Part shown: in pieces, positions 23,582 to 43,164 of the stretch
How the letters are laid out: the number at the start of each line of letters is the position of its first letter
How positions within the stretch are numbered: the first letter of the stretch is position 1
Sequence record: MK327943.1
Origin: Escherichia phage vB_EcoM_G53
Length of the DNA stretch: 64,000 bases
Reading direction: 5' to 3' (one strand)
Program-made: the position numbers and the translations under genes
The notes under the pieces: generated by a model
Told to the model about the DNA's origin: nothing
Database searches by the model: none
What the model saw: only the letters and a program-made list of their open reading frames with translations

Positions 23582-23688
23582 TTTACCATACTCGTTTCAA
23601 TAAGATTCACTATGCCGTTTACCATGTTATAGGTAAACATCGGATAATTGTATTGTACTACAACATAAGCGATAAGCAAAAGTTTCAT
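23578..23688 (-). CDS. Small hydrophobic ORF (36 aa)
   Basis: MKLLLIAYVVVQYNYPMFTYNMVNGIVNLIETSMVK with SD GGAGAA; stop overlaps the next start (ATGA). Confidence 0.3.
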   Translation of the reverse strand: MKLLLIAYVVVQYNYPMFTYNMVNGIVNLIETSMVK

Positions 23689-23707
23689 TTTGTTCTCCGT
23701 TTGTTTT

Positions 23708-23746
23708 GATAGGACTACTATAACATAGTCCTACCAAGATGTAAAC
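23708..23746 (-). promoter_or_regulatory. Early promoter / stem-loop cassette (GATAGGACT ... AGTCCTAC inverted repeat around the -10)
   Basis: gataggactactataacatagtcctac...gtaaac; minus-sense -35 GTTTAC and -10 TATAGT. Confidence 0.55.
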
Positions 23747-23952
23747 TACCGATTGTGTTTTAAATGTTGATAAAGTTCTTCAACTTGTTTTGGGTCCAAA
23801 ACAATTAGGTCATTTTCTTGGCGAAGATAAATCCATCCATTATCCCCAGGACCATTTTTACAAAACATCACCACCATATCATCATCTTCAGCGCTTTCAG
23901 GTAAAAGTTCAAGTACACCGTCTTCAGATTTTCCAGTATAATCGTAAAGCAT
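23746..23952 (-). CDS. Hypothetical acidic protein
   Basis: 68 aa from MLYDYTGKSEDGV with SD GAGGA. Confidence 0.45.
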   Translation of the reverse strand: MLYDYTGKSEDGVLELLPESAEDDDMVVMFCKNGPGDNGWIYLRQENDLIVLDPKQVEELYQHLKHNR

Positions 23953-30012: not shown

Positions 30013-30342
30013 TTATACTCTAGGCTTTTGAGCTTGTTTGGTATTGGATTCCCATGCGGCTTTGGTAATTTTGTTAGCGGCATAACCAAAGGCATTAGAT
30101 AGAACACCTTTAGAGTTGAATACATCCAATCCAATAAGTACACCGGCTGTGTTAAATTTAGGAGCAAAGTACGCATTAGTTTTAGAAAGAACTTTTTTCA
30201 ATTCAGGGTCTTGAACCAAGCCATCAAAAACGCCTTTACTATTTACTTTGTATGTTACTTTGGGATTTTTACCTTCTTCGATAGCAGCTTTCTGTTCCGC
30301 AGATAATGTAACTTCAGTGATAAACTCCTGATATGTTTTCAT
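30013..30342 (-). CDS. Internal protein (IP) candidate with capsid-targeting N-terminus
   Basis: 109 aa starting MKTYQEFITE, the conserved N-terminal capsid-targeting sequence of T4 internal proteins. Confidence 0.75.
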   Translation of the reverse strand: MKTYQEFITEVTLSAEQKAAIEEGKNPKVTYKVNSKGVFDGLVQDPELKKVLSKTNAYFAPKFNTAGVLIGLDVFNSKGVLSNAFGYAANKITKAAWESNTKQAQKPRV

Positions 30343-30367: not shown

Positions 30368-30682
30368 TTATTCTTTAGGGAAGTTTTTAGAGTATGCATC
30401 ATAAAGTTTATTACCAATACGACGGAAGACTTTAGCTGCAAAACGGTTTTCAGGGTTTTTAATCATGATTTGCATCATGTAAGTTCCTGCATCCGAAAGA
30501 GCTTCTTCATAGTACCCATTAATTTCTTTAAGAGTCCTACGTTTACCGCCAGGACCATCAACAGTAATTTTCCATTTACCTGTAGAAGTGCGGCTCGGTG
30601 GCTCAACTTGTTCAATCCAAATATAACCACCTTCAACGCGTTGGTTGGCGGATTCTGCAATAAATTCTTTATACGTTTTCAT
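30368..30682 (-). CDS. Internal protein (IP) candidate with capsid-targeting N-terminus
   Basis: 104 aa starting MKTYKEFIAE; body unrelated to the neighbouring IP. Confidence 0.75.
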   Translation of the reverse strand: MKTYKEFIAESANQRVEGGYIWIEQVEPPSRTSTGKWKITVDGPGGKRRTLKEINGYYEEALSDAGTYMMQIMIKNPENRFAAKVFRRIGNKLYDAYSKNFPKE

Positions 30683-31485: not shown

Positions 31486-31767
31486 CTATTTTTCTGAAGC
31501 GCCTGAAATATATTTTTCAAGACGTTGTTTCATTAGCGAGCCGTTCTTAGCGATTTCTTCCGGTTTATCGCACATACGTAACAAGGCTTCAAGCTTAGCG
31601 ATATCGCTGGTACGTTCAAATTTGCGAGTATCTATTTTACTAGCAAGTTCAGAAATACGTGCTAATAGACTTTCAGCTTCAACCAAAGCTGCACCTAGCT
31701 TAGTTGCAAATGTGTCGGTAGCTTCGTTAAGAATAGATTCTGATAAAAATTCACTATATGTTTTCAT
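31486..31767 (-). CDS. Internal protein (IP) candidate with capsid-targeting N-terminus
   Basis: 93 aa starting [10 protein letters not shown]; ATG overlaps the lysozyme stop (ATGA). Confidence 0.7.
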
Positions 31768-34440: not shown

Positions 34441-34498
34441 AATATTCTCCTCATGTTTTAATAGGACTACTATAATATAGCCCTATCAGTTTGTACAC

Positions 34499-34699
34499 TT
34501 ATTTTGACATTTCTTCGATGTCACGACGATACCCATCACGAACTTCACGAAGAGCTTCAAGGCCACACATAGGCTCGATACCAGTAATGTGAACTTGATT
34601 AATCTGATACTCTACATCTTCTAACTGAGCGAAAACATAACGACGTTCTGCTGCACAACCAGGTTTAGCTTTACCGAAACGTTTATTCAAAGTAGTCAT
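34499..34699 (-). CDS. Hypothetical protein
   Basis: 66 aa from MTTLNKRFGKAKPG with SD GGAG. Confidence 0.45.
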   Translation of the reverse strand: MTTLNKRFGKAKPGCAAERRYVFAQLEDVEYQINQVHITGIEPMCGLEALREVRDGYRRDIEEMSK

Positions 34700-34779: not shown

Positions 34780-35736
34780 TTATTTGAAAGGTTTTACCAT
34801 ATGGAAATTTTGTTTGAAACGTTTGACGTAATCGTCGTGTCCTAAGCTTTGGTACATACTTACTACTTTGCTATAATTTTCCCAAGCGAACTCACGGAAC
34901 CATCCTGATGTGATTGATGTACAGACCTTTTCAAGGGCCATCATAAAACTATCACGTGGATGGATTTTAAAGTCGTTAGGAATCTGTGAACGTTCAAGAG
35001 CTAATACACAAGCTTCTTCATATACACCGGCTAATTTAACCATTTCTGGTAATGATTCGAACTTCTCGCGTGATGTCATAACTTCTGAGCCTTCTTTCAT
35101 ATAAAACTTATAAGCAGGCTGGTCAGTTAGTGCAATGGCTTCATGGATAGTATCATGGTCATACGTATAGATGTCATCTTTAAAGAACGCACTTTTAGAA
35201 GTGTCAAGAACTGGGTGAGCATAATTCAAGGTTTCTTTCTGGCGTTTCAGCATAATTTCAGTAAGTTCATCGTTCAGTGTAACACCTTTACCACGAAGAT
35301 ACTGAATATGGTTCATAGTCTTTAAAAAGAATGGATTATTTTTCTTGAAACGATGAGACATCTTAATTGCAAGACATATCTCAGGAGTTGCCCAGTAAAA
35401 CCCGTTCAAACGGTCTTTAGTCAAATTTTTCTTGGCGTATTTTAAAAGGTCATAAGAAGACGTGAAATCTTCAGGAGTGAGTTCACCGACTAGTTCGCGA
35501 ACGTTAGTGAGAGCCGGAACGATGTATGCTTCAAAATGAGTTTCGCGTCCATTATGGAAGCATTTGAAAACTTGGACATCAGGGTTATCTTGGTGAACAT
35601 ATACACCCATCATTTGATTTTTGAATGCATTCCAAGAACCTTGGTCCGCAATAAAGTCCCAATCACTATTTTTAATAGCGCTAGAATCAATAAGACCGTG
35701 ATAGTGAAGTGCACGAGAACCAATAACTAACATCAT
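34780..35736 (-). CDS. Hypothetical protein (318 aa)
   Basis: Long ORF with dense coding; no motif confidently recognised. Confidence 0.6.
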   Translation of the reverse strand: MMLVIGSRALHYHGLIDSSAIKNSDWDFIADQGSWNAFKNQMMGVYVHQDNPDVQVFKCFHNGRETHFEAYIVPALTNVRELVGELTPEDFTSSYDLLKYAKKNLTKDRLNGFYWATPEICLAIKMSHRFKKNNPFFLKTMNHIQYLRGKGVTLNDELTEIMLKRQKETLNYAHPVLDTSKSAFFKDDIYTYDHDTIHEAIALTDQPAYKFYMKEGSEVMTSREKFESLPEMVKLAGVYEEACVLALERSQIPNDFKIHPRDSFMMALEKVCTSITSGWFREFAWENYSKVVSMYQSLGHDDYVKRFKQNFHMVKPFK

Positions 35737-35764: not shown

Positions 35765-36004
35765 TTAAATTTCACGACATGCGATATTATATTCATCCCA
35801 GAGGTCATCATGTGAAGCCTCTACCAATGGAACGATTGTACCGTTTATGTCTTCATTATAAGGGCAAATTGTACAGTGCGCATCTTCGAATCGGATGCCT
35901 TTGTGTTCAGATTTTTTATAACGCATATCGAATATCTTTGCAAACTTTTCACGAGTAATGGTTTTACCAACCACTTTGGTTCCGATACTTTCGTAATAAA
36001 TCAT
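35765..36004 (-). CDS. Hypothetical protein
   Basis: 79 aa from MIYYESIGTK with SD GGAG. Confidence 0.5.
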   Translation of the reverse strand: MIYYESIGTKVVGKTITREKFAKIFDMRYKKSEHKGIRFEDAHCTICPYNEDINGTIVPLVEASHDDLWDEYNIACREI

Positions 36005-36023
36005 TGTGGACTCCATTTGTTTT

Positions 36024-36062
36024 GATAGGACTACTATAACATAGCCCTATCTTGTTGTAAAC
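36024..36062 (-). promoter_or_regulatory. Early promoter / stem-loop cassette
   Basis: gataggactactataacatagccctatc...gtaaac; minus-sense -35 GTTTAC, -10 TATAGT. Confidence 0.55.
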
Positions 36063-36066
36063 TGTT

Positions 36067-36264
36067 TTAGCAAGAATAACTAGATGATACCCAGCCTTGA
36101 ACAGTGATACTATTGTGGGATAATGAGATCGCGTCCTGGAGATTCAGACCTGCGTTATCTTCAATCCATAATGTAACTTCTTCGCGTTCTTCTGTTGCAA
36201 TTTGGAACAGGTTTTCCAGAGCAGCTACTGCCGTACGTACAGCACAATCTAATTCACGAGACAT
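36067..36264 (-). CDS. Small protein, member of the C-terminal GWVSSSxxC family
   Basis: 65 aa ending ...ITVQGWVSSSYSC. Confidence 0.55.
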   Translation of the reverse strand: MSRELDCAVRTAVAALENLFQIATEEREEVTLWIEDNAGLNLQDAISLSHNSITVQGWVSSSYSC

Positions 36265-36273
36265 ATTGTTTCC

Positions 36274-36546
36274 TTAGCAAGTGTGAGAAGATGCGACCCA
36301 ACCACCAGTTTCGAGGCTCAGGTTGTAGTCGTATTGGTAAACGTCAGCCCATTCAGCATAGCCGTTTTTTGTACAACGTTCAAGATCGGCTTTAAGATGT
36401 CCGGGTGAATGATAGGTTCCACCCATACCATAAGCTGGGTACAAGTTGAACGTTGTGTTTTGTTTATCAGCAATTTCTTTGGCAGCCTCAATAGCTGCAT
36501 AGATTTTTGCTACAGCTTCAGCCAGTTCGGTTTGTTCTTTAGACAT
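36274..36546 (-). CDS. Small protein, member of the C-terminal GWVSSSxxC family
   Basis: 90 aa ending ...ETGGWVASSHTC; N-terminal region similar to 36556-36861. Confidence 0.55.
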   Translation of the reverse strand: MSKEQTELAEAVAKIYAAIEAAKEIADKQNTTFNLYPAYGMGGTYHSPGHLKADLERCTKNGYAEWADVYQYDYNLSLETGGWVASSHTC

Positions 36547-36555
36547 AACGATTCC

Positions 36556-36861
36556 TTAGCACAACGCAGAAGACGAAACCCAAGCACCTTCAGTAATAAC
36601 GTAACCATTACCTTCACGCTTAACATCGCCACCATTATTTTCAATTTCATCTTTCATCCACTGGGATACGATTTCACCCTTAGGATAATAAGTACGACCG
36701 CTACCATAATCACCTACAGAAAATGATACGGCATATTGGTCTGCGATCTTTGTTGCTTCTTCTTCGATACGTTCAGCTTGATTCAGAAGTTTATAAATTG
36801 CATCTGAAGCGGATTTGGCATCATTAAACTCTGGTACTTTAATTTCAATAATCTTACTCAT
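36556..36861 (-). CDS. Small protein, member of the C-terminal GWVSSSxxC family
   Basis: 101 aa ending ...EGAWVSSSALC. Confidence 0.55.
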   Translation of the reverse strand: MSKIIEIKVPEFNDAKSASDAIYKLLNQAERIEEEATKIADQYAVSFSVGDYGSGRTYYPKGEIVSQWMKDEIENNGGDVKREGNGYVITEGAWVSSSALC

Positions 36862-37217
36862 TTTCTACATTCCTTAATAAAGTTTTCGATTGTTTCATTT
36901 TCACGTTTAGCTAGAAGTTCATTATAACTAATCATTTGAGAAGCGTAAATCTTTTTATTTTTCTTGTTATGGTTTATAAAATCGTAGTAAAAATAGACTA
37001 CAGTACAAAATGATGCGATGGATGCAAAGGCTTGGGTATACCGTAAGTCCTGCCATTGGTCTGTGAATCCACCAGTGTTCCCTATAAATCCTAACACAAC
37101 GCCGTCAATAAGAAATCCAACTAATCCAAAGGCAAATCCCATGCCAATACTCATAATAAAAATTAGAATGTTCTCACCAAGAGAAGGCCATACGGTTAAG
37201 AGTTGAGGCTTTTGCAT
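36858..37217 (-). CDS. Hypothetical membrane protein ending in the FIKECR junction motif
   Basis: 119 aa; three hydrophobic segments; C-terminus ...ETIENFIKECRK. Confidence 0.55.
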   Translation of the reverse strand: MQKPQLLTVWPSLGENILIFIMSIGMGFAFGLVGFLIDGVVLGFIGNTGGFTDQWQDLRYTQAFASIASFCTVVYFYYDFINHNKKNKKIYASQMISYNELLAKRENETIENFIKECRK

Positions 37218-37591
37218 CTTATTTCCTTAACGAATTCCATAGCTTCTTCATATTCATACTTTTTAACAGCTTCATCATACTGAGCTTGGGCTTTTGCGCA
37301 CTGAACTTTCCATTCTCTTAATCGGGCTCTGTGATGACGGCCTTGGTGCCAATATCCTACCCAATTAATAGGCATTAATAAAAACGGTACAATAAGTGGT
37401 GCGACGAACATTAATGAAAATGCTGCATCAGACGATATAACTTCACTAGAATCTAAAACAGCTCCTATAATCATAAAGATTAAAAATGCTAAAGCTAAAA
37501 TAGGGCCAAATAATACTTCATTTGGGATTAATTTACGCTTGTATTCATACGCCCAGGGCTTACTTGGCATGTATAGGGTTGGCTTTGACAT
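37196..37591 (-). CDS. Hypothetical membrane protein
   Basis: 131 aa from MSKPTLYMPSKPW; two hydrophobic helices; C-terminus ...AMEFVKEIRCKSLNS overlaps the next SD and start. Confidence 0.5.
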   Translation of the reverse strand: MSKPTLYMPSKPWAYEYKRKLIPNEVLFGPILALAFLIFMIIGAVLDSSEVISSDAAFSLMFVAPLIVPFLLMPINWVGYWHQGRHHRARLREWKVQCAKAQAQYDEAVKKYEYEEAMEFVKEIRCKSLNS

Positions 37592-38162
37592 ATTCTCTAC
37601 ATTCCATAATAAATTGCTCAAGGATTAAATTGTTAGTGAAATTAGGACTAACAACCATAGTTTCATAAAGCGCATCAATAGCACTTAAAGCATCAACTCT
37701 TTTAAGCAAAGGCTTGCCTTCATACATAGTTTCAGAATCGATGATTAACGTAAAGTAATATTTTTTATTATCGACTAGAACTTCTGTATCGATATAAAAC
37801 ATATTAGACCTCAGAAGCTTATCTCTAAAGCCATAATAATCTTCAGAGCGTTCGCTGATATATTCCCATTCAGTGTTTAAACAACAAACAGACCACGTAG
37901 GAGCAACGAAATCAGTGAATCTAATATCATGGTCTGCAACTAGTTTAGCAATAGCTCCGATATCATGAATCATAATACCTGGGGCTAATAAAGATTTTCT
38001 GCTATGGCTAGCCGTTTTCTCGGTGGTCTCATAAGAAGACGACCAGTACCATTTACGTCCGGTTGCAACATATCGTAATGAATCAACTAAAGACGTAGGT
38101 GGATTTACCTTATCTCGGAACTCTTCGAACATTGAGTCAATATCATTATTTTGGTTTCGCAT
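37560..38162 (-). CDS. Hypothetical protein (200 aa) with FIMECR near the C-terminus
   Basis: Start MRNQNNDIDSMFEEF with SD AAAGGAG; ends ...LEQFIMECREYVKANPIHAK, overlapping the next gene start by 32 nt. Confidence 0.55.
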   Translation of the reverse strand: MRNQNNDIDSMFEEFRDKVNPPTSLVDSLRYVATGRKWYWSSSYETTEKTASHSRKSLLAPGIMIHDIGAIAKLVADHDIRFTDFVAPTWSVCCLNTEWEYISERSEDYYGFRDKLLRSNMFYIDTEVLVDNKKYYFTLIIDSETMYEGKPLLKRVDALSAIDALYETMVVSPNFTNNLILEQFIMECREYVKANPIHAK

Positions 38163-42763: not shown

Positions 42764-42791
42764 TTTATTTCTCCATTTACTCATTTGATTT

Positions 42792-42830
42792 GATAGGACT
42801 ACTATAACATAGTCCTATCATCATGTAAAC
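42792..42830 (-). promoter_or_regulatory. Early promoter / stem-loop cassette (perfect 9-bp inverted repeat around the -10)
   Basis: gataggactactataacatagtcctatc...gtaaac; minus-sense GTTTACA-17-TATAGT. Confidence 0.6.
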
Positions 42831-42832
42831 TA

Positions 42833-43096
42833 TTAAATTCCAGCTTCGCGTTTAACATAATCGACATAAGCTTGGATAGCTTTCTTGCTGGTAATTTTTA
42901 CCTGGCCACGACCATTGCCTTCTTTAGAGTTTTTCTTAACAACTACATTACCATCTTTAACACCCCATACATGGACATAAGTACCGATGTTTCGGTCGTA
43001 GAACATTGCATGGTCGTTGTTGTAAGAGAATGATTCGTAGTTCTCCGACAGAGTAGAAGATTGAGATTCAGCGATAAATTCTTTATACGTTTTCAT
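42833..43096 (-). CDS. Internal protein (IP) candidate with capsid-targeting N-terminus
   Basis: 87 aa starting MKTYKEFIAESQ. Confidence 0.75.
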   Translation of the reverse strand: MKTYKEFIAESQSSTLSENYESFSYNNDHAMFYDRNIGTYVHVWGVKDGNVVVKKNSKEGNGRGQVKITSKKAIQAYVDYVKREAGI

Positions 43097-43122
43097 TTGT
43101 TTTTCCGTTTGGTTGTTGATTT

Positions 43123-43161
43123 GATAGGACTACTATAACATAGTCCTATCTGCATGTAAAC
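43123..43161 (-). promoter_or_regulatory. Early promoter / stem-loop cassette
   Basis: Identical core to the 42792 copy (gataggactactataacatagtcctatc). Confidence 0.6.
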
Positions 43162-43164
43162 TAC

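What the first reader, a model, noticed from the sequence alone, without database searches (positions are those of the whole stretch)
36067..36861. Three tandem small paralogs sharing a C-terminal GWV(S/A)SSxxC motif ending exactly at the C-terminus
Products end ...VQGWVSSSYSC, ...TGGWVASSHTC and ...EGAWVSSSALC. The codons differ synonymously between copies (GTA/GTC/GTT, TCA/GCA/TCG), so conservation is at the peptide level. The two longer copies also share an internal KIAD...YG.G.TY.P region. A conserved C-terminal tail ending in Cys on otherwise diverging small proteins suggests a targeting or modification signal.
Basis: seen in the sequence. Interest (0 to 1): 0.6.

Follow-up and report, generated by a model that had tools for sequence, protein, structure and literature searches.

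The report
Cys-tailed small proteins paired with nucleotidyltransferase
The three small genes are real, anciently duplicated members of a large, unnamed phage-only protein family whose invariant tail (Trp-x-Ser-Ser-Ser-x-x-Cys, at the very end) almost always lies just upstream of one conserved nucleotidyltransferase gene, which points to an undescribed two-part phage system.

Summary
Three adjacent minus-strand genes (101, 90 and 65 aa) end in AWVSSSALC, GWVASSHTC and GWVSSSYSC, with synonymous codon differences.

They are not recent copies. They share about 30% identity, each has its own orthologues, and all three are under purifying selection. They belong to a large family (696 representative clusters) of small acidic proteins with no Pfam, PDB or literature match. 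In that family W(-7), S(-4), S/T(-3) and the terminal Cys are essentially invariant.

The new result is genetic linkage. In 84 loci from 18 enzyme lineage groups, 195 of 196 family ORFs lie upstream of, and on the same strand as, a DUF7277-DUF7275 protein (window 34780-35736). Loci found through the small gene alone carry the enzyme downstream wherever enough DNA was stored.

My best reading is that the small proteins are cognate partners of this nucleotidyltransferase. The Ser/Cys tail would be the site the enzyme engages, either as an acceptor of a modification or as an inhibitory plug. The chemistry is inferred, not shown.

The parts
36556..36861 (-). Small acidic protein, 101 aa (RB69ORF139c type; phrog_899). 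Predicted long helix plus beta-sheet, a DYGSGRTYYP loop, and tail AWVSSSALC.
36274..36546 (-). Small acidic protein, 90 aa (phrog_899), with a YGMGGTYHSP loop and tail GWVASSHTC.
36067..36264 (-). Small acidic protein, 65 aa (RB69ORF136c type; phrog_4882). A shortened family member that lacks the YGxGG loop; tail GWVSSSYSC.
36559..36582 (-). C-terminal motif W-V-S-S-S-A-L-C of the 101-aa protein (codons for W94 to C101).
36277..36300 (-). C-terminal motif W-V-A-S-S-H-T-C of the 90-aa protein.
36070..36093 (-). C-terminal motif W-V-S-S-S-Y-S-C of the 65-aa protein.
34780..35736 (-). Linked enzyme, 318 aa, DUF7277 + DUF7275. Pol-beta-type nucleotidyltransferase fold closest to MenT1, ANT(2'') and MenT3. 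Invariant G6, S7, D25, D27, E69, K125, H128, H194-D195..H198 and C272.
35765..36016 (-). Intervening 83-aa ORF (phrog_3723). No family other than the enzyme and the small proteins was shared by 4 or more lineage groups, so this ORF is probably not part of the core module.
36921..36949 (-). Promoter-like site inside e.3 (TTTACG-17-TATAAT), upstream of the three small genes. A closely related record annotates a T4 middle-type promoter at the corresponding place.
36033..36061 (-). T4 early-type promoter-like site (TTTACA-17-TATAGT) between the 65-aa gene and the 83-aa/318-aa genes. It is part of a repeated intergenic cassette.

Best explanation
The three genes are ancient tandem paralogues of a large, phage-restricted family of small, acidic, cytoplasmic alpha/beta proteins. 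The family forms a conserved two-component module with the nucleotidyltransferase encoded downstream on the same strand (window 34780-35736).

The invariant tail G-W-x-(S/A/P)-S-(S/T)-x-x-Cys-COOH is the family's functional site. The most likely mechanism is that the tail is presented to the nucleotidyltransferase. The enzyme would transfer an NMP to one of the conserved tail hydroxyls (S-4 or S/T-3). The terminal Cys would help dock the tail, or take part in the chemistry, at the conserved C-terminal domain of the enzyme, which carries the invariant residues H128, H174, HDxxH and C272.

Several diverged small proteins per genome would then be alternative substrates or carriers of one enzyme.

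Shown: paralogy, motif conservation, purifying selection, gene linkage, the enzyme's fold and its intact catalytic residues, and restriction to phages.

Inferred: physical interaction, nucleotidylylation of the tail, and the role of the Cys.
For: Family and motif:
- 696 representative clusters at E<=1e-3.
- 184 of 198 small members end in Cys; W(-7) is present in 183 of 184, S(-4) in 182 and S(-3) in 181. A subclade has SST..C followed by one extra residue, so the hydroxyl at -3 is kept.
- Half of the members have no other Cys, and the median pI is 4.4.

Linkage:
- 69 of 80 loci fetched through the enzyme carry HMM hits to the small family, all on the same strand and all but one upstream.
- With the motif added, 195 of 196 family ORFs are upstream on the same strand. 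This covers 77 of 84 loci and 17 of 18 enzyme lineage groups, with 1-5 copies per locus.
- No other gene family was shared by 4 or more lineage groups.
- The reverse test used 24 loci found through the YGMGGTYY DNA pattern alone. The enzyme lies downstream in 17; 6 are truncated pieces of contigs already known to carry it; 1 is undetermined.
- Counts per host genus in the phage collection are almost equal for the small protein and the enzyme, and each is essentially single-locus per genome.

Enzyme:
- AF2 mean pLDDT 93.
- G6, S7, D25, D27 and E69 are invariant. These relatives all transfer NMP to a hydroxyl, of tRNA 3' ends or of antibiotics.
- C272 and the KVCTSITSGWFR block are kept in all 16 aligned enzymes of the clade that carries Cys-tail partners. 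They are lost in three distant homologues that have no such partner.

Phage restriction: only 5 loci, all metagenome bins, were found among 185,579 bacterial and archaeal species genomes, and each has Cys-tail ORFs upstream.
Against: - No direct evidence of interaction or modification. No co-folding could be run.
- In the AF2 model W94-S96 form the last beta-strand, so part of the motif (the Trp) may be conserved for folding.
- Two adjacent invariant serines plus a Cys are more than a single acceptor site needs.
- In T4-like phages the small genes are separated from the enzyme by 330-1600 nt, a promoter and another ORF, so they are not translationally coupled there.
- Four related loci (L046, L047, L050, L073) have the enzyme, with all conserved residues in the two aligned (L046, L073), but no small partner within 4 kb.
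- The structural relatives MenT act on tRNA, not on proteins.
Confidence: 0.42

Rival explanations
1. The small proteins are non-covalent regulators of the nucleotidyltransferase. They could be antitoxin-like inhibitors, as MenA1 is for MenT1, or specificity adaptors. The acidic body would mimic nucleic acid on the enzyme's substrate surface and the tail would plug or dock into a conserved pocket. The enzyme's true substrate would be RNA, for example tRNA 3' ends.
For: - The gene order is the same here (small gene upstream), and in some lineages the small ORF abuts or overlaps the enzyme gene (gaps of -28 to +15 nt).
- The small proteins are strongly acidic.
- Distant enzyme homologues sit next to RNA ligase, a metallophosphoesterase, tRNA clusters or peptidyl-tRNA hydrolase.
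- Several diverged paralogues with one invariant docking tail would suit adaptors.
Against: - There is no sequence or family similarity to MenA, AbiEi or MazE.
- Copy number is 1-5 per enzyme, which is unusual for antitoxins.
- The module is found almost only in phage genomes, including lytic T4-like phages, not in bacterial chromosomes or plasmids.
- Strict retention of the hydroxyls at -4 and -3 and of a lone terminal thiol suggests chemistry rather than binding alone.
Confidence: 0.28
2. The tail is mainly a structural element (last beta-strand plus a C-terminal cap) of a small fold. The proteins act independently of the enzyme, for example as decoys or inhibitors of host proteins or defences. 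The linkage would then reflect co-regulation or co-inheritance only.
For: - AF2 places W-V-S in a beta-strand and the last residues in a short helical turn.
- 24 of 139 members carry a second internal W-x-S-S directly before the terminal one, consistent with a Trp-Trp hairpin.
- They are small, acidic proteins with early/middle-type promoter-like sites upstream, lying between e.2 and e.3, which abut directly in T4. This is typical of host-takeover or anti-defence genes.
Against: - Linkage holds across 17 of 18 enzyme lineage groups that share no other gene family in four or more groups, always with the same order and strand.
- The tail Ser, Ser and Cys are invariant across the 99-sequence alignment, where no core position other than the loop glycine G55 is.
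- A lone invariant cytoplasmic Cys has no structural partner within the protein.
Confidence: 0.12
3. The tail is a RiPP-like core. The enzyme activates Ser/Thr(-3), which is eliminated and attacked by the terminal Cys to give a lanthionine-type S/T-x-x-C ring. Alternatively, the Cys joins enzyme residues in a shared metal site.
For: - The S/T-x-x-C spacing is kept in nearly all members.
- Several 'precursor' genes lie upstream of one enzyme.
- The enzyme's C-terminal domain has invariant His and Cys residues: H128, H174, HDxxH and C272.
Against: - No lanthipeptide dehydratase, cyclase or kinase family was found in the neighbourhood.
- To my knowledge no nucleotidyltransferase is known to drive such dehydration.
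- The substrates are folded 65-105-aa proteins.
- C243 is replaceable by Tyr.
Confidence: 0.05
4. The tail is a virion-targeting or processing signal, like that of T4 internal proteins.
For: The genes lie between the ipII-like and ipI-like genes of a T4-type genome.
Against: - The known capsid-targeting sequence is N-terminal (MKTYxEFIxE). It is present on four other genes in the window and on none of these three.
- The family also occurs in unrelated phage groups, always next to the enzyme.
- The upstream promoter-like sites are of early/middle type.
Confidence: 0.03

Closest known systems
MenAT1 / AbiE nucleotidyltransferase toxin-antitoxin systems (DUF1814 NTases; MenT1 PDB 8an4, MenT3/TglT 6j7n, MenT4 6y56)
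   Same: - A small protein gene lies upstream on the same strand, as MenA1 (68 aa) does for MenT1.
- The catalytic GS/DxD/acidic triad is intact.
   Different: - There is no sequence-level match to DUF1814 or to any solved chain.
- The partner proteins are unrelated to MenA or AbiEi and carry an invariant Cys tail.
- There are 1-5 partner copies per enzyme.
- The module is phage-only.
- The enzyme has a distinct, highly conserved C-terminal DUF7275 domain.
- Toxicity was not tested.
GlnD-PII and MntA-HepT (Pol-beta NTases that nucleotidylylate a small partner protein)
   Same: The concept is the same: a Pol-beta-fold NTase acting on a small cognate protein encoded nearby, at a hydroxyl side chain. 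This comparison rests on my own knowledge of those systems.
   Different: - Those enzymes modify Tyr in a loop, not a Ser/Cys tail at the C-terminus.
- There is no homology of the small proteins to PII or HEPN.
- Modification is not demonstrated here.
ANT(2'')/LnuA antibiotic nucleotidyltransferases
   Different: Those are single-domain enzymes of about 160-180 aa with no protein partner. The enzyme here has an additional helical domain of about 190 aa and a dedicated set of small proteins.
RlaP (PF10127) and CCA-adding enzymes of phage RNA-repair clusters
   Same: Both are phage-borne Pol-beta NTases. Distant homologues of the enzyme here sit beside RNA ligase or tRNA genes.
   Different: There is no Pfam match to PF10127 or PolyA_pol. 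The core clade is linked to Cys-tail proteins, not to RNA ligase.

Membership tests
MenAT/AbiE (DUF1814) toxin-antitoxin system | Toxin is a DUF1814-family NTase with sequence motifs I-IV | tested here: inconclusive
   [not shown]
MenAT/AbiE (DUF1814) toxin-antitoxin system | Cognate antitoxin of a known class (MenA1 MazE-like, AbiEi wHTH/COG5340, MenA3) | tested here: not met
   The small proteins match no family above threshold in Pfam, NCBIfam or PADLOC, and their fold has no PDB match.
MenAT/AbiE (DUF1814) toxin-antitoxin system | Growth inhibition by the NTase, neutralised by the upstream protein | not testable with these tools
   This needs expression assays.
MenAT/AbiE (DUF1814) toxin-antitoxin system | Encoded in bacterial or archaeal chromosomes and plasmids | tested here: not met
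   There are 733 phage records and 170 viral-contig matches, against 5 metagenome-bin contigs among 185,579 species genomes.
Lanthipeptide/RiPP precursor | Adjacent dehydratase, cyclase or kinase-lyase (LanB/C/M/KC/L) or another known RiPP maturase | tested here: not met
   The only conserved neighbour is the NTase. Pfam scans of neighbouring genes found no Lan families.
Lanthipeptide/RiPP precursor | Ser/Thr and Cys in the core peptide with ring-compatible spacing | tested here: met
   The S/T(-3)-x-x-C(0) spacing is near-invariant. This alone is not diagnostic.
T4 internal (capsid-targeted) proteins | N-terminal capsid-targeting sequence MKTYxEFIxE ending in an (L/I)xE cleavage site | tested here: not met
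   The motif was found on four other ORFs in the window (30013-30342, 30368-30682, 31486-31767, 42833-43096) and not on the three genes.
Small Cys-tail family (phrog_899/phrog_4882; no Pfam entry) | N-terminal helix (A..A..IAD), a strand, a YG(M/S)GxTY loop (optional), and a W-x-[SAP]-S-[ST]-x-x-C tail at the C-terminus | tested here: met
   The 65-aa type joins the family at hhalign probability 93.9% and E=1.6e-7 over its full length.
Small Cys-tail family + DUF7277/DUF7275 module | Small gene or genes upstream of, and co-directional with, a DUF7277-DUF7275 gene | tested here: met
   In the window the small genes are at 36067-36861 and the enzyme at 34780-35736, all on the minus strand. The general pattern is shown.

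The most novel reading that the evidence does not exclude
The module is a phage-encoded protein-modification system of a kind not described. A MenT/ANT-like nucleotidyltransferase would install a covalent modification on the invariant C-terminal Ser-Ser-Ser/Thr-x-x-Cys tail of a set of dedicated small carrier proteins. The modification could be O-nucleotidylylation, possibly followed by elimination and thioether formation, or by priming of a nucleotide chain. The modified proteins would then act on host targets or defences.
Probability: 0.27. Interest if true: 0.85.

Novelty: new variant of a known kind. Interest (0 to 1): 0.66.

Why it matters
The enzyme is present in about 1.4% of deposited phage genomes (733 of 50,697). 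These include RB69-like, Dhaka-, Karam-, Aeromonas and Acinetobacter T4-type phages, roughly 150-kb Escherichia and Klebsiella phages (phAPEC8 type), Pseudomonas Otagovirus, and jumbo-sized viral contigs of 355-371 kb. In all of these groups the enzyme gene is preceded by Cys-tail genes. Neither partner has a name, a solved structure or a paper.

If the tail is a modification site, this would be a new protein modification made by a phage enzyme from the same fold group as tRNA-blocking toxins and antibiotic-resistance enzymes.

If the small proteins are inhibitors or adaptors, it would be a phage-borne counterpart of MenAT/AbiE systems, with a new partner class.

Either way it gives a concrete, testable function to a set of 'hypothetical' early/middle-type genes. 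The system can be tested in RB69-type phages, and T4 can serve as a comparison: it has no copy in the 35 kb examined around the e locus, the rest of its genome not having been checked.

Tried and rejected
Searches and ideas that led nowhere:
- Pfam, NCBIfam and PADLOC scans of the three proteins and of 99 family members gave nothing above threshold.
- PDB sequence and profile searches for both the small proteins and the enzyme gave nothing.
- Foldseek of the 101-aa model against the PDB gave a best E-value of 0.15, so there is no fold relative.
- Three giant proteins topped or ranked high in the representative search. They are cadherin-like repeat proteins that match only the 'SFSVGDYGSGRTY' stretch by repeat summation, and are spurious.
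- The 'sulfurtransferase' annotation in some related records belongs to e.4, not to these genes.
- The search for related loci with the small-family alignment failed because it had no conserved 7-10-column stretch. I replaced it with an enzyme-based scan and a DNA pattern for YGMGGTYY.
- No other paralogues exist in the window (tblastn). The extra 'places' reported by megablast are a repeated promoter/terminator cassette.
- Literature searches for the PHROG, DUF and ORF names, and for phage NTase or protein nucleotidylylation, found no description.
- RlaP (PF10127) was considered and rejected as the enzyme's family.
- The capsid-targeting idea was rejected.
- A weak Pfam hit to Peptidase_S78_2 (E 0.007, below the cutoff) was ignored.

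Full report
**Origin of the window.** The region is 99.8% identical to Escherichia phage mobillu and is conserved in about 140 RB69-like (Mosigvirus) genomes. In an annotated relative the three genes correspond to RB69ORF136c and RB69ORF139c and lie between the e.2-side ORFs and e.3/e.4/e.5. In T4 itself e.2 abuts e.3. Neither the small family nor the enzyme occurs in T4 positions 50-85 kb.

**Observation.**
- The ORFs are 36556-36861 (101 aa), 36274-36546 (90 aa) and 36067-36264 (65 aa), all on the minus strand. They are separated by 9-nt spacers that carry AAGGA.
- The tails read AWVSSSALC, GWVASSHTC and GWVSSSYSC, each followed by TAA.
- Only 26 of 978 six-frame ORFs in the window end in Cys. 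The W[VIL][SAT]S[SA] pattern occurs four times, three of them here at the same offset from the stop.
- There are no further paralogues in the window.
- dN/dS is 0.0-0.1 against the nearest relative and 0.13-0.45 against distant orthologues. Each paralogue has its own orthologues in other genera, so the triplication is old.

**One family, not just one tail.**
- The 101-aa and 90-aa proteins align over most of their length at about 30% identity (E 2e-4).
- The 65-aa subfamily aligns end to end with the family profile (hhalign probability 93.9%, E 1.6e-7).
- A word-indexed search found homologues in Mosig-, Dhaka- and Karamvirus, Klebsiella and Aeromonas phages and jumbo contigs, all with the tail.
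- An exhaustive profile search found 696 representative clusters at E<=1e-3. Three giant hits in that list are spurious cadherin-like repeat proteins.
- Of 198 small members, 184 end in Cys. W is at -7 in 183 of 184, S at -4 in 182, and S at -3 in 181. Position -5 is S, A or P.
- A subclade has SST..C plus one extra residue, so the hydroxyl at -3 and the near-terminal position are both kept.
- In a 99-sequence alignment the only invariant columns are G55 (in the YGxGG loop), W94, S97, S98 and C101.
- The proteins are acidic (median pI 4.4), and about half have no other Cys.
- AF2 gives a confident model (pLDDT 93): a long helix packed on a small sheet, with W-V-S as the last strand and the final residues in a short turn.
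- There is no Pfam, NCBIfam or PADLOC family, no PDB sequence or fold relative and no literature.
- 24 of 139 representatives carry a second W-x-S-S just before the terminal one, against 0.6 expected from shuffles.

**The key new finding is linkage to an enzyme.**
- Annotated hits in Karamvirus, Pseudomonas Otagovirus and Phapecoctavirus all showed a protein of about 310 aa directly downstream. In every case it is DUF7277 + DUF7275, like window ORF 34780-35736.
- I fetched 80 viral loci through the enzyme, at 39-97% identity to the window protein. A small-family HMM hit 69 of them, always on the same strand and upstream but for one extra hit.
- Most of the loci without an HMM hit still have an upstream ORF ending in W..SS..C.
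- With the motif added, 195 of 196 family ORFs are upstream on the same strand. That covers 77 of 84 loci and 17 of 18 enzyme lineage groups, with 1-5 copies per locus. Gaps to the enzyme gene run from an overlap of 28 nt to 1.6 kb.
- No other gene family was shared by 4 or more lineage groups.
- Conversely, 24 loci found through a DNA pattern for YGMGGTYY all hold small-family ORFs. The enzyme is downstream in 17. Six are truncated pieces of contigs already known to carry it, and one is undetermined.
- In the phage collection the small protein (484 records) and the enzyme (733 records) have nearly equal counts for Escherichia, Aeromonas, Klebsiella, Enterobacter and Shigella phages, with one place per genome.
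- Among 185,579 bacterial and archaeal species genomes only five metagenome-bin contigs carry the enzyme, each with Cys-tail ORFs upstream.

**The enzyme.**
- It is strongly conserved: the 63-sequence alignment has 45% mean column identity and long invariant blocks.
- G6, S7, D25, D27 and E69 form a Pol-beta-type catalytic set. K125, H128, K139, H194-D195..H198, E240-E241, E248-R249 and K270 are conserved even in actinophage homologues.
- AF2 gives pLDDT 93.
- Foldseek's top hits are an NTase-like protein (5uvd) and MenT1.
- These relatives transfer NMP to a hydroxyl of tRNA 3' ends (PMC7450476) or of antibiotics.
- Distant homologues (26-35% identity) in Streptomyces, Gordonia, Vibrio and roseophage genomes lack a Cys-tail neighbour. 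Three of the four also lack C272 and the KVCTSITSGWFR block, which all 16 aligned enzymes of the partnered clade keep. Their neighbours include RNA ligase, a metallophosphoesterase, tRNA genes and peptidyl-tRNA hydrolase.

**Interpretation.**
- The functional coupling of the small proteins with the nucleotidyltransferase is well supported.
- How they work together is inferred.
- I favour the tail as the element the enzyme engages, with the conserved hydroxyls as NMP acceptors and the Cys in docking or chemistry. The reasons are that hydroxyls and a lone thiol are strictly kept, the motif sits within one residue of the C-terminus, several diverged bodies share one invariant tail, and the enzyme class modifies hydroxyls.
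- The main rival is a MenA1/MenT1-like non-covalent inhibitor or adaptor, with RNA as the true substrate.
- A purely structural tail, a RiPP-like thioether, and capsid targeting are less likely. Capsid targeting is excluded for the known N-terminal signal.

**Expression context.**
- A promoter-like site inside e.3 (36949-36921) precedes the three genes.
- A T4 early-type site (36061-36033) lies between the 65-aa gene and the 83-aa/318-aa genes.
- All genes are co-directional.

**Verdict.** It was incomplete in two ways: the proteins are whole-length paralogues, and the informative context lies outside the given coordinates. The family and its enzyme link appear to be undescribed.

Noticed in passing
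window 36001-36066; also 23685-23747, 42782-42834, 43116-43162 and 34454-34499: An intergenic cassette of 46-63 bp is repeated at five places (86-89% identity). It contains a T4 early-type promoter (GTTTAC...TATAGT) that overlaps annotated terminator hairpins. It accounts for the extra 'places' reported in megablast hits.
   Followed up: partly
RB69 record AY303349 69737-70040 (H42); proteins P0012, P0013 and P0024: In the RB69 record the 101-aa gene is split into ORF139c and ORF138c by a frameshift. Other isolates carry frameshifted or truncated versions of the 90-aa gene. Either these are sequencing errors or individual paralogues are dispensable.
   Followed up: no
L092 3378-4136 (Streptomyces phage Sham), L093 3309-4100 (Gordonia phage ClubL), L094 3156-3917 (Vibrio phage ValKK3), L095 3486-4391 (DSS3_VP1): These distant enzyme homologues have no Cys-tail gene nearby. 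Their neighbours are RNA ligase, a metallophosphoesterase, a tRNA cluster or peptidyl-tRNA hydrolase. Sham's 111-aa downstream protein is homologous to ValKK3's 97-aa upstream protein (E 5e-7), which may be an alternative partner family.
   Followed up: partly
L046, L047, L050, L073 (related viral contigs): The enzyme keeps all conserved residues in the two that were aligned (L046, L073), but there is no Cys-tail ORF within 4 kb. A 178-aa ORF sits directly upstream instead. In L050 the enzyme gene is split into two ORFs.
   Followed up: no
family representatives such as P0096, P0082 and P0085; L032 3700-3954: The tail unit is duplicated in tandem in some members (for example WESSSEGWESSSEGWVSSSSQC). 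In total there are 25 internal W-x-S-S motifs against 0.6 expected by shuffling.
   Followed up: partly
window 30013-30342, 30368-30682, 31486-31767 and 42833-43096 (minus strand): Four genes start with the T4 capsid-targeting sequence MKTY(K/S/Q)EF(I/L)xE. This is a set of polymorphic internal head proteins flanking the region.
   Followed up: no
window 35765-36016 (minus strand): An 83-aa ORF (phrog_3723, contains CTICPYNED) lies between the small genes and the enzyme in T4-like phages. It was not among the ORF families shared by 4 or more lineage groups, and its function is unknown.
   Followed up: partly
window 37196-37621 (e.4 homologue): Some related GenBank records (JK42, JK36, JK45, vB_Eco_F31) label a gene in this region 'sulfurtransferase'. 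In JK42 the label sits on this predicted membrane protein. Pfam and PHROGs give no support for that label.
   Followed up: partly
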